The position numbers are program-made. Positions 42,001 to 45,000 of a stretch of DNA of 64,000 bases are shown piece after piece. Source of the DNA: Mobula birostris (Eukaryota); assembly GCF_030028105.1 (NCBI RefSeq), contig NC_092380.1:70429717-70493716 (forward strand), in the 5' to 3' direction. Each line of letters starts with the position of its first letter. Position 1 is the first letter of the stretch.

Positions 42001-45000
42001 GGGGCCCAAAACTGCACACAGTATTCCAAATGAGGTCTCACTAATGCCCCATAGAGCCTCATCAACACCTCCTTACTCTTATACACTATTCCTCTTGAAA
42101 TGAATGCCAACATAGCATTCGCTTTCCTTACCGCCGATCCAACTTGGTGGTTAACCTTTAGGGTATCCTGCACGAGGACCCCCAAGTCCCTCTGCACTTC
42201 CGATTTTTGAATTTTCTCCCCATCTAAATAATAATCTGCCTGATTATTTCTTCTTCCGAAATGTACAACCGTACATTTGTCAACGTTGTATCTCATCTGC
42301 CATTTCTTTGCCCACTCTCCTAGACTGACTAAGTCTCTCTGCAACCTTTCCGTTTCTTCAACATTTCCTGCTGTTCCACCTATCTTGGTGTCATCCGCAA
42401 ACTTAGCCACAAAACCATTTAATCCATAATCCAAGTCATCGATATACATTGTAAAAAGAAGCGGCCCCAACACCGACCCCTGCGGAACACCACTAGTAAC
42501 CGGCAACCAATCAGAATAGGATCCCTTTATTCCCACCCTTTGCTTTCTGCCTATCAGCCAATGCTCCACCCATTTCAATATCTTTCCTATAATTCCATGG
42601 GCTCTCATCTTATTAAGCAGCCTCATATGCAGCACCTTATCGAAGGCCTTTTGAAAATCCAAATACACAACATCGACAGCCTCTCCCTTGTCAATCTTAT
42701 TCGAGATTACCTCAAAAAATTCCAATAGGTTGGTGAGGCAGGATCTTCCCTTCATGAAACCATGCTGGCTTCGGCCTATCTTGTCATGCACCTCGAGGTA
42801 TTTCATAACCTCGTCCTTGAGGATTGACTCCAATATCTTTCCAACTACTGATGTCAGACTAATAGGTCTGTAATTTTCTTTTTGCTGCCTCCTTCCTTTC
42901 TTAAATAGCGGAACTACATTTGCGACCTTCCAGTCCTCCGGAACCATGCCAGAGTCTATTGATTCCTGGAAGATCATTTCCAATGCTTCCACAATCTCCA
43001 AAGCCACCTCTTTCAGAACCCTTGGGTGCACCTCATCTGGACCGGGAGACTTAACTATTCTTAGTCCACTTAGCTTCCCAAGCACATTCTCTCTAGTAAT
43101 CTTGACTGTACCTAATTCTATACCCTGATACCTCAGGCTATCAGGTATATTACTGATGTCTTCCACTGTGAAGACTGATGCAAAATACTCATTCAGTTCC
43201 TCCACCATCTCTTTGTTATCCATTATAATTTCTCCAGCATCATTTTCAATCAGTCCCATATCTACCCTTGTCATTCTTTTACTCTTCATATATTTTTAAA
43301 AAAACTCTTAGTATCGTTTTTTATGTTAATCGCCAACTTCCTTTCATAATTCATCTTTTCTTTCCTAGTGACTTCCTTAGTTTCCTTCTGTAAGTTTTTA
43401 AAAGTCTTGCAGTCCTCATTTTTCCCACTAATTTTTGCTTCCTTGTACACCGTTTCTTTTGCTTTTATTTTTGCCTTAATCTCTCTCGTTAGCCACATTT
43501 GTGCCATTTTTCCAGTCACGATTTTCTTTTTACTTGGAATATATTTTTCCTGCATTTTCCTTATTTCTTGTAGGAATTTCATCCAATTCTGCTCTGCTGT
43601 CCCTCCATTTAACTTACTTTTCCAATCGACTTGGGCCAGTTCCTCTCTCATACCACTGTAATTTCCCCTGTTCCACTGAAATATCGATACACCTGATACC
43701 AGCTTCTCCTTTTCAAATTTGAAACTGAACTCAATCATATTATGATCACTACTTCCAAGGGGTTCCTTTACCTCCAGCTCCCTAATCACCTCAGGTTCGT
43801 TACACAGCACCCAATCCAAAACAGCCGGCCCCCTGGTGGGCTTCTGGACTGCACCTTAATCCCTAACCGGGTTGGCCTGCTGAGTTCCTCCAGCATTTTA
43901 TGTGTATTGCCGCAAAATAAATAACCCATCGGCGTTTTACTTGGAAGAATTGACAATAAGCACATTTCAAAAGTTTTAAGCTTCTTTGTCCAATTCTCGA
44001 GAATGATCTTTTAAAGGAAACCTTAGCCAGACTCCATTTTATGCCCCGCCGTTTAAACCAGTTTTACCCAGAGGAGAGGAGTAACCGCACTCTGACACCT
44101 TACCTGCCGCAGGGGTGAGCCACACAACAATCAGAAACAACACCAGGGGTCCCGAAGCCCCTGACCACCGGTATCGCCGCGACCTCGCCCAAGCGCGGCT
44201 GGAAGAAAAACCCAGCTCCGCCACCATTTCAGATGGAAAAACAACTGTTTTCACTTTCGTATTCTTCACGTGGTTTGTTCGGGTAAGTACCCATCCTATC
44301 ATAGAATATGTTTTAATTTAACCATACTGTCTTGACAACCGTTGTCTCCACAAGACTGGCCGTATACATTGCATTGCTCTTCATGTTGTAAGGACGTATC
44401 GAAAACTGAGGCTGCAGTCTACAGAGATGGGCGGAAAGCGGTGTCTGGGAAACGAGCTGCAGGGTGACGGTGACCCTGCTCATCCTTGGAGAGAGAGAAT
44501 CATTCAGCGCTTCAGGAGGCGGCGACTGCTGCCGATCCAGCGCCTCTCATGCTCGACCCTTTACCAAAATAAAACCTGTGACCAGAGCCCGCCAGGGACC
44601 CCTGCGTTCCGTGATGGGAATTTTTAACATTAGCTTGCCCTGAGACCTTTCTACTGGCAATCCGTAACCAATCTACCCAGTCTGGCTCTTGTTCTTCATT
44701 TGTTTGCCTGCCCTTGACCTATCTAAATGCATCACTATAAAATGCATTCTGTTATTTTTGCAACCTGAATATACTTATTTATGGAATGATATGTCTGGAT
44801 GGCTTCCAAACAAAAGCTTTTCACTAAATCTTGGTGTTGGTGTTATTGTCACATATCAATACCAGTGGTAGCAATAATGGTGTTGATAAAACGCAAGGGT
44901 CTCTGATGTTCAGCAACATTATAGCCCTGGTGGTATATTCTGGCTCTCGAGGTCAAGTCTTGGGAGCTCCCAAGTGCAGGCATGAAATAAAGGAAATCAA

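What the first reader, a model, noticed from the sequence alone, without database searches (positions are those of the whole stretch)
44104..44227. Second signal-peptide exon 27.6 kb from the only IgV exon
This is a strong leader exon with a phase-1 donor in a CpG-rich island. I found no Ig exon in the unique stretches between 22650 and 44100, so its nearest compatible partner is the IgV at 16513. It is either an alternative promoter of the same gene (CpG-island versus AT-rich proximal promoter) or the orphaned start of a paralog whose body was lost.
Basis: partly seen in the sequence, partly recalled or inferred. Interest (0 to 1): 0.65.

Follow-up and report, generated by a model that had tools for sequence, protein, structure and literature searches.

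The report
Orphan signal-peptide exon in manta ray
This is a real, well-conserved signal-peptide exon with its own CpG-island promoter, borrowed from a sister gene of the ray B7-H6-like immune-ligand family, but here it stands without that sister gene's body, 21 kb upstream of a neighbouring family member that already has its own start.

Summary
On the minus strand, 44227-44104 is an ATG-initiated 41-codon ORF ending in a phase-1 CAG|GTAAGG donor, inside the window's most CpG-dense stretch. The window is giant manta ray (Mobula birostris), not human, and has no N.

The peptide aligns without gaps (19-38 of 41 identical) to the annotated N-termini of 7 NCR3LG1/B7-H6-like multi-Ig models from four other batoid species. 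All 7 continue into a different V domain (V'), only about 46% identical to the V exon at 16513.

The gene at 16513 has its own short leader at 22648-22597, used by all 6 batoid models of its type. No model combines the long leader with this V type (0 of 13).

Family HMMs, tblastn with 28 relatives and a Pfam scan with positive controls find no other Ig exon in the 64 kb.

So this is the start of a paralog without its body. Whether it is silent, serves as an alternative first exon of the neighbour, or belongs to a leaderless V' model elsewhere on the chromosome (P0019) cannot be settled without transcripts or more of the chromosome. The joined leader+V product was not built or searched.

The parts
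44104..44227 (-). Leader 2: first coding exon, 41 codons plus 1 base (phase 1). It encodes a long signal peptide of the batoid 'long-leader' NCR3LG1/B7-H6-like lineage.
   Evidence: Translation. Five database hits, E 1.4e-14 to 2.1e-8, all batoid N-termini. Gap-free 41-column alignment with 7 leaders.
44098..44106 (-). Splice donor CAG|GTAAGG (the exon ends at 44104; GT is at 44103-44102).
   Evidence: It matches 8 of 9 positions of the recalled consensus.
44001..44650 (.). CpG island around and upstream of leader 2: 650 bp, GC 0.511, CpG o/e 0.78. This is the presumed promoter.
   Evidence: Window-wide o/e is 0.29. Promoter activity is inferred, not shown.
44228..44302 (-). Conserved 5' flank with two upstream ATGs. 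The one at 44302 is in frame with leader 2. The one at 44294 is in another frame, giving 21 codons that stop 2 nt before the main ATG.
   Evidence: Fifteen of 18 residues match the N-terminal extension of the Hemitrygon akajei model P0005, in a different frame from the leader. The conservation is therefore at nucleotide level.
22597..22648 (-). Leader 1: the proximal, AT-rich first coding exon of the gene that owns the V exon (17 codons plus 1 base, donor CAG|GTAAGA).
   Evidence: 100% match to residues 1-18 of the M. birostris model P0007 and to P0008-P0011.
16175..16513 (-). IgV exon (phase 1-1), the only V-type exon in the window.
   Evidence: Pfam V-set 1.7e-12. 100% identical to P0007. 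Family HMM 8e-49. Nearest solved structures are CD276 at 1.8e-14 and NCR3LG1 at 2.9e-11. Boundaries.
13983..14279 (-). IgC1 exon (phase 1-1).
   Evidence: Pfam C1-set 2.1e-11. Family HMM 1e-28. Boundaries.
13392..13493 (-). Transmembrane exon (phase 1-1).
   Evidence: tblastn with P0007. Boundaries.
1889..1981 (-). Next cytoplasmic exon of the same gene. The rest of P0007 lies beyond the window's start.
   Evidence: 100% tblastn match to P0007 residues 264-294. Boundaries.
34563..34589 (-). ATG plus 8 codons followed by G|GT. It is a near copy of the 9-residue non-leader start of the M. birostris V' model P0019. It marks similar sequence between this interval and the P0019 locus (paralogous or repeat-derived).
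   Evidence: Eight of 9 residues identical, E 0.078 in a relaxed tblastn. The enclosing 70-aa ORF has 0 hits among 1.84 billion representatives.

Best explanation
Leader 2 is the genuine first coding exon, a 41-residue signal peptide with a phase-1 donor and a CpG-island promoter, of the batoid 'long-leader' B7-H6/NCR3LG1-like gene lineage. In this stretch of the manta genome it stands alone. Its cognate V' exon and the rest of that gene are not downstream. The next gene on the strand is a paralog of the other type, with its own conserved short leader.

I read it as the orphaned 5' end of a tandem paralog whose body was deleted or moved away. It is not the regular start of the gene at 16513.

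Shown: homology and intactness of the exon, its CpG island, absence of any other Ig exon in 64 kb, and the neighbour's own leader.

Inferred: that the body was lost rather than misplaced, and that the exon is not routinely spliced to 16513. If the island still fires, the donor's only in-phase Ig acceptor within 44 kb is 16513. The split codon would be GGT, as with leader 1, so the mature protein would be unchanged.
For: 1. Five of 5 database hits to the 41-aa peptide are N-termini of batoid NCR3LG1-like or uncharacterised multi-Ig proteins, 80-93% identical where the whole query is covered.

2. Seven leaders from five species are all exactly 41 residues and align without gaps. Identity to the window is 38, 37, 34, 33, 34 and 19 of 41.

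3. In all 7 models the leader is followed by V' (E-[ST]-L-[DN]-[ML]-TIF...). V' matches the window's V exon at only 45-47%.

4. P0007, the M. birostris model that owns the V exon, maps to leader 1, V, C1, TM and one further exon in the window.

5. All 6 of 6 batoid models of this V type start with leader 1. Shark and chimaera relatives also use short leaders.

6. Family HMMs searched against 1,610 six-frame pieces hit only 16538-16146 (8e-49) and 14304-13891 (1e-28). The next best pieces score E of 0.6 or worse.

7. All 93 tblastn HSPs (E <= 0.01) from 28 family proteins fall in the six known exons.

8. A Pfam scan of all three minus-strand frames of 22600-44103 gives only RVT_1, twice, at E < 0.01. 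The same mode recovers C1-set at 2e-9 and V-set at 5.5e-11 in the control region.

9. The interval holds at least four LINE-derived pieces.

10. The P0007 cluster has 1 member, so no alternative-leader isoform is annotated there. No M. birostris protein carrying leader 2 was found among the 9 word-sharing candidates.
Against: 1. The exon is fully intact: ATG, open frame and strong donor. It is no more diverged from the two M. hypostoma leaders (3 and 4 differences) than they are from each other (3), so there is no sign of decay.

2. Its CpG island is the densest in the window. That fits a promoter still unmethylated in the germ line, and hence a transcribed exon that must splice somewhere.

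3. The two Mobula species are close, so intactness does not show selection either way.

4. Annotation is a weak witness. Four of 12 batoid V'-type representatives lack any leader (P0019, P0020, P0022, P0023), so gene models in this family often miss first exons.

6. A V' body without a leader exists on the same chromosome (P0019). That suits relocation or mis-assembly as well as loss.
Confidence: 0.5

Rival explanations
1. Alternative first exon by promoter capture. The CpG-island promoter is active. Leader 2 splices across 27.6 kb, skipping leader 1 (which has no acceptor), to the V exon at 16513. The same mature B7-like protein is then made from a second, differently regulated promoter.
For: Leader 2 is on the same strand, and both junctions are phase 1 with the same split codon, G|GT. 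No Ig exon or family exon lies between. The exon and donor are intact and the CpG island is retained. The donor is strong, 8 of 9.
Against: None of 13 batoid models combines leader 2 with this V type: 7 are leader 2 plus V' and 6 are leader 1 plus V. The P0007 cluster has a single member. Phase-1 compatibility is generic for Ig-superfamily exons; every exon of this gene is 1-1. Two LINE copies in sense orientation lie in the would-be intron, the first about 190 nt below the donor. No transcript data were available.
Confidence: 0.28
2. One gene in two places. Leader 2 is the missing start of the leaderless M. birostris V'-C1'-TM' model P0019. The two halves are separated by a real rearrangement with a breakpoint in intron 1, or by a mis-join or mis-orientation in this repeat-rich, multi-copy part of the assembly.
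For: The halves are complementary and lie on one chromosome of 118,100,321 bp: a leader without a body here, and a body without a signal peptide in P0019. P0019's V' is 89% identical to P0002, and leader 2 is 93% identical to it, so the two diverge to a similar degree. Only one M. birostris V'-type protein was found among 15 hits.
Against: The 9-residue start of P0019 has a near copy (8 of 9) downstream of leader 2 in this window. A single break in one intron would leave that element on one side only, unless it is a dispersed repeat; that test was inconclusive, with 0 hits. The window has no N or gap at which a mis-join would be expected. Three Hypanus sabinus models also lack leaders, so a missing leader may be an annotation habit rather than a structural fact.
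Confidence: 0.15
3. The island belongs to something else: a plus-strand transcript starting divergently from the same CpG island (ATG 44233 ... GG|GTAAGT near 44280). On this view the minus-strand ORF is a relic of no present use.
For: A consensus-like donor GTAAGT sits on the plus strand 50 nt from an ATG. CpG islands are often bidirectional (recalled).
Against: The plus-strand ORF is 16 codons with no homologue to test. No plus-strand non-transposon exon was recognised in 44.3-64 kb. That stretch is the reverse complement of a 5' flank conserved with Hemitrygon on the minus-strand reading. Rfam finds no RNA gene in the window, 0 hits.
Confidence: 0.04
4. Chance ORF, not an exon.
For: None beyond the generic ease of finding short ORFs.
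Against: E = 1.4e-14 to annotated N-termini. The 41-column alignment across five species has no gaps. The expected number of such leader-like exons is 0.13 per 64 kb.
Confidence: 0.01

Closest known systems
Long-leader NCR3LG1-like / uncharacterised multi-Ig genes of batoids (RefSeq models: Mobula hypostoma LOC134353705 and LOC134353704, Hemitrygon akajei NCR3LG1-like, Hypanus sabinus LOC132397244, Pristis pectinata LOC127577613)
   Same: The first coding exon is the same: 41 residues, an Arg-rich n-region, the LVLFLIVVW core, and a phase-1 end. Identity is 19-38 of 41.
   Different: In all 7 models the leader continues into V'-C1'-TM' and further Ig domains. Here no such exon follows within 44 kb. 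These are automatic gene models; I found no paper on them.
Human B7-H6 (NCR3LG1) and B7-H3 (CD276), B7 family
   Same: The neighbouring gene's V exon is nearest to CD276 (1.8e-14) and NCR3LG1 (2.9e-11) among solved structures. It has V-set plus C1-set plus TM architecture.
   Different: The sequence relation is distant. Receptor binding (NKp30) is untested. The ray proteins carry long extra regions after the TM segment. The name 'NCR3LG1-like' is NCBI's automatic label.
Alternative first exons and promoters of vertebrate genes (a CpG-island distal promoter beside a tissue-specific proximal one; general knowledge, recalled)
   Same: Two ATG-bearing, phase-compatible first exons lie upstream of one acceptor. 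One sits in a CpG island and one in AT-rich DNA.
   Different: The defining evidence, transcripts from both starts, is missing. The distal exon's homologues belong to another gene.
Solo exons and truncated pseudogene fragments in tandem immune-gene clusters (general knowledge, recalled)
   Same: It is a family-specific exon without the rest of its gene, embedded among LINE insertions.
   Different: It shows no disabling change, and it keeps a CpG island.

Membership tests
Batoid long-leader exon (leader 2 type) | ATG-initiated ORF of 41 codons that aligns without gaps to annotated N-termini of the lineage | tested here: met
   38, 37, 34, 33, 34 and 19 of 41 identical, with no gap in 7 sequences.
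Batoid long-leader exon (leader 2 type) | Ends in phase 1 at a GT donor | tested here: met
   CAG|GTAAGG. The homologues continue with Glu (a G|AR codon), which fits phase 1.
Batoid long-leader exon (leader 2 type) | Followed on the same strand by the cognate V' exon | tested here: not met
   No V' or any other Ig exon beyond 16513 and 14279 in the 64 kb. Controls.
Signal peptide | Positive n-region, hydrophobic h-region, small residues near the cleavage site | tested here: met
   net +4 before the core, VLFLIVVWL with KD mean 3.38, tail TPAA. This is an ad hoc calculation on the exon alone. No SignalP was available, and the joined leader+V sequence was not made, so the cleavage site is not predicted.
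CpG island (length >= 200 bp, GC >= 0.5, o/e >= 0.6; criteria recalled) | Composition thresholds | tested here: met
   44001-44650 is 650 bp with GC 0.511 and o/e 0.78. Some 200-bp sub-windows fall to GC 0.405-0.475.
CpG island promoter | Transcription start and unmethylated state | not testable with these tools
   No CAGE, RNA-seq or methylation data are held.
Alternative first exon of the P0007 gene | Same strand, upstream, phase-compatible, no intervening coding exon of the family | tested here: met
Alternative first exon of the P0007 gene | A transcript or annotated isoform joining 44104 to 16513 | tested here: not met
   None of 13 batoid representatives is cross-combined. The P0007 cluster has 1 member. 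No M. birostris hit carries leader 2.
B7 family, B7-H6/B7-H3-like (the neighbouring gene) | IgV plus IgC1 ectodomain and a TM segment | tested here: met
   V-set 1.7e-12 and C1-set 2.1e-11. PDB neighbours are CD276 and NCR3LG1. TM exon.
B7 family, B7-H6/B7-H3-like (the neighbouring gene) | Binding to NKp30 or another CD28-family receptor | not tested

The most novel reading that the evidence does not exclude
After the body of a long-leader B7-H6-like paralog was lost, its CpG-island promoter and 41-residue leader were captured by the next gene in the cluster. The manta now makes the same short-leader-type B7-like ligand from two promoters: a housekeeping-like CpG island 27.6 kb upstream and the AT-rich proximal one. 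This would be regulatory rewiring of an NK-ligand-like gene by paralog decay.
Probability: 0.28. Interest if true: 0.5.

Novelty: new member of a known kind. Interest (0 to 1): 0.3.

Why it matters
The immediate value is to annotation. The exon appears to be unannotated as coding in M. birostris: no protein carrying it was found. The only M. birostris V'-type model found (P0019) lacks a signal peptide. Together these flag a B7-H6-like cluster whose gene models, or assembly, need repair.

For comparative immunology it documents two things. First, batoids, from two orders (Myliobatiformes and Rhinopristiformes), share an unusually long leader set in CpG-rich DNA for one lineage of these V-C1 genes. 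Shark and chimaera relatives use short leaders. Second, tandem paralogs here can lose or exchange 5' ends. If the captured-promoter reading is right, it would be a clean natural example of promoter capture inside an immune-ligand cluster.

Tried and rejected
1. Chance ORF: rejected.

2. A hidden or decayed Ig exon between the leaders or elsewhere in the window. I ran family V and C HMMs on 1,610 six-frame pieces, tblastn with 28 relatives at E <= 0.01, relaxed tblastn with 28 N-termini at E <= 5, and Pfam on three minus-strand frames. Nothing was found. The plus strand of 22.6-33.9 kb and 39.7-44.1 kb was covered only by the family HMMs and tblastn, not by Pfam.

3. A homologue of the third leader type (P0021 of H. 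akajei) in the window: none better than E = 1.

4. Known RNA genes or tRNA-like SINE heads at the island: Rfam gave 0 hits and ARAGORN 0.

5. Whether the element at 34.56 kb is a dispersed repeat. It has no second copy in the window, no inverted or direct repeat framing it, no Pfam hit on either strand, and 0 hits among 1.84 billion representatives. This stays inconclusive.

7. Literature. Searches found no paper on these ray genes or on this leader. Flajnik et al. 2012 (Immunogenetics 64:571) and Ohta and Flajnik 2015 were seen only as titles in reference lists and are not held. No supplementary files were consulted.

8. Not done by instruction: the joined leader-2+V (or leader-1+V) product was not assembled, searched, folded or scored for signal-peptide cleavage. 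Exons were searched one by one.

The syntenic loci of M. hypostoma and H. akajei, and the position of P0019, therefore stayed unchecked.
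Full report
**What the window is.** The IgV exon at 16513 is 100% identical to an NCBI protein of Mobula birostris, the giant manta ray (P0007, 708 aa; taxonomy). The window is therefore ray DNA, not human. It contains no N, so nothing had to be left unfilled.

**The observation.** The feature lies on the minus strand.
- The ATG is at 44227. The ORF has 41 codons (MVAELGFSSSRAWARSRRYRWSGASGPLVLFLIVVWLTPAA) plus one extra base (G at 44104), followed by GT: CAG|GTAAGG, phase 1.
- On the exon alone, the peptide has net charge +4 before a very hydrophobic core (VLFLIVVWL, Kyte-Doolittle mean 3.38) and a small-residue tail.
- The exon has GC 0.637 and CpG o/e 0.83. The stretch 44001-44650 has GC 0.511 and o/e 0.78, against 0.29 for the whole window. 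Ten of the 25 most CpG-dense 300-bp windows, out of 1,274, start at 43901-44401.
- The proximal leader region is AT-rich (GC 0.351, o/e 0.39).
- A deliberately strict leader-exon scan finds only this exon in 64 kb on both strands. In 30 Markov shuffles, 27 gave none, 2 gave one and 1 gave two.

**What the exon is.** Searched alone, the 41-residue peptide finds 5 proteins among 9 word-sharing candidates. All are N-termini of batoid gene models:
- M. hypostoma LOC134353705 (93% identical) and LOC134353704 (90%);
- Hemitrygon akajei 'NCR3LG1-like' (83%) and an uncharacterised protein (80%);
- Hypanus sabinus LOC132397244.

Pristis pectinata LOC127577613 carries a more distant version (19 of 41). 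The seven leaders are all exactly 41 residues and align without a gap. They come from two batoid orders.

In all seven models the leader runs into a V domain of another type (V', E-[ST]-L-[DN]-[ML]-TIF...). V' matches the window's V exon at only 45-47%. Shark and chimaera relatives of both V types begin with short leaders (MGIL..., MAIL..., MNIL...). The long leader is thus seen only in batoids among the 28 proteins I saw.

**The neighbouring gene.** P0007 maps to five exons in the window:
- leader 1, 22648-22597;
- V, 16513-16175;
- C1, 14279-13983;
- TM, 13493-13392;
- one further exon, 1981-1889.

The rest of P0007 lies beyond the window's start. Every one of these exons is phase 1-1. Pfam gives V-set 1.7e-12 and C1-set 2.1e-11. 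The nearest solved structures to the V exon are CD276/B7-H3 (1.8e-14) and NCR3LG1/B7-H6 (2.9e-11). The C1 exon resembles antibody constant domains. All 6 of 6 batoid models of this V type (P0007-P0012) begin with leader 1.

**Is there another Ig exon?** No.
- HMMs built from 23 distinct V domains and 79 distinct C-type domains of the family were searched with all filters off against 1,610 six-frame pieces of 25 aa or more. They hit only 16538-16146 (8e-49) and 14304-13891 (1e-28). Apart from the V exon's weak cross-match to the C model (0.063), the next best pieces score E of 0.6 or worse.
- tblastn with 28 family proteins gives 93 HSPs at E <= 0.01. All lie in the six known exons.
- Pfam was run on the three minus-strand frames of 22600-44103, read through stops with X. 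At E < 0.01 it reports only RVT_1, twice; four unrelated families scored 0.038-0.078, and none is an Ig domain.
- The same mode recovers C1-set (2e-9) and V-set (5.5e-11) in the control stretch 11000-22600.
- The interval holds a long LINE with zinc knuckle, endonuclease, RT and RNase H on the plus strand (27.8-32.1 kb), two RT-bearing LINE copies on the minus strand (39.7-40.8 and 42.0-43.3 kb) and an RT fragment at 23.8-24.2 kb.

**Where is the paralog's body?** A search with the V' domain of P0002 finds 15 proteins among 136 candidates. Only one is from M. birostris: P0019, 'NCR3LG1-like', 272 aa, on the same 118,100,321-bp chromosome, 89% identical.

P0019 has V'-C1'-TM' but no signal peptide. 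It starts with nine residues, MNFERHLEG. A near copy of that start (MDFERHLEG followed by G|GT) lies in this window at 34589-34563, between the two leaders. The enclosing ORF has no relatives among 1.84 billion representatives and no repeat hallmarks. I cannot say whether it is a dispersed repeat or marks paralogy between this interval and the P0019 locus.

Missing leaders are common in this family's models. Of 12 batoid V'-type representatives, 7 carry the long leader, 1 carries another leader, 3 start inside V', and 1 is P0019.

**Reading.**

Shown:
- the exon is a bona fide, intact member of the long-leader family;
- it sits in a CpG island;
- its cognate V' is not within the 44 kb downstream or the 20 kb upstream;
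- the next gene has its own conserved leader.

Inferred, with my probabilities:
- about 0.5: it is the orphaned 5' end of a tandem paralog and not a regular start of the gene at 16513;
- about 0.28: the island is live and the exon serves as an alternative first exon of that gene. The split codon would be GGT with either leader, so the mature protein would not change;
- about 0.15: it is the true start of P0019, separated by a rearrangement or an assembly error.

Against 'orphan': the exon shows no decay. It has 3-4 differences from the two M. hypostoma leaders, which differ from each other by 3. Its island is the densest in the window.

Against 'alternative first exon': none of 13 models is cross-combined, the P0007 cluster has one member, and phase compatibility is generic here.

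**Limits.**
- No transcript, methylation or eukaryotic genomic DNA resource was available.
The joined leader+V product was not built, searched, folded or scored.

**Literature.** I read passages of PMC10751288 and PMC12227049 for context on non-rearranging V-C1 genes in cartilaginous fish. PMC3964593 and PMC6514059 yielded only reference-list lines. Searches found no paper on these ray genes.

**Verdict.** This is a real feature, correctly described. It is a new member of a known kind: a family-specific leader exon without its gene. Interest is modest unless transcripts show promoter capture.

Noticed in passing
window 27797-32061 (+): A long LINE with zf-CCHC (5.9e-5), endonuclease (2.8e-17), RVT_1 (1.6e-10) and RNase_H (1.3e-15) domains. 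Its ORFs are spread over several frames, so it is decayed.
   Followed up: partly
window 41991-43855 (-) and 39716-40807 (-): Two LINE copies with RT (2e-32 and 3.7e-30) lie in the same orientation as a leader-2 transcript. The ORFs of the first begin at 43855, about 250 nt below the leader-2 donor.
   Followed up: partly
window 32876-33263 and 33496-33618: Tandem arrays of a 66-nt unit (5.8 copies, 80% matches) and a 33-nt unit (3.6 copies).
   Followed up: no
window 36751-37250: A second CpG-rich patch (19 CpG, o/e 0.80, GC 0.438). No exon, Pfam domain, tRNA or Rfam hit is attached to it.
   Followed up: partly
window 34563-34589 (-): A nine-codon ATG start followed by G|GT, 8 of 9 identical to the non-leader start of the M. 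birostris model P0019. P0019's first exon is thus either cryptic or repeat-derived.
   Followed up: partly
window 44233-44285 (+): Antisense to the 5' flank of leader 2: an ATG, 16 codons, then GG|GTAAGT. This could be a divergent first exon from the same CpG island. No homologue was available to test it.
   Followed up: no
window 44228-44302 (-): Two upstream ATGs precede leader 2: one in frame at 44302 and one out of frame at 44294, a 21-codon uORF ending 2 nt before the main ATG. The stretch matches the N-terminal extension of H. akajei P0005 at 15 of 18 residues but in another frame, so it is a conserved 5' UTR rather than coding sequence.
   Followed up: partly
proteins P0007, P0010-P0012 and P0002-P0006 (relatives; off-window for P0007): Both paralog types carry, after the TM segment, a further Ig-like region. 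Examples are ...LNWNVTIPTGVPMEI...QPDISTDNGTE... in P0007 and ...VVTWMVSSFRPYEI...YPDISQDDGAE... in P0002. Both also have long acidic repeats. This layout, seen by eye, is odd for a B7-like protein.
   Followed up: no
window 43873-43910, 17055-17089, 5488-5525, 12309-12344: A short dispersed repeat (about 36 nt, 92-97% identical copies, GCTGAGTTCCTCCAGCATTTT core) occurs at least four times in the window. It also appears translated in several ORFs, and is presumably the end of a common elasmobranch retroelement.
   Followed up: no
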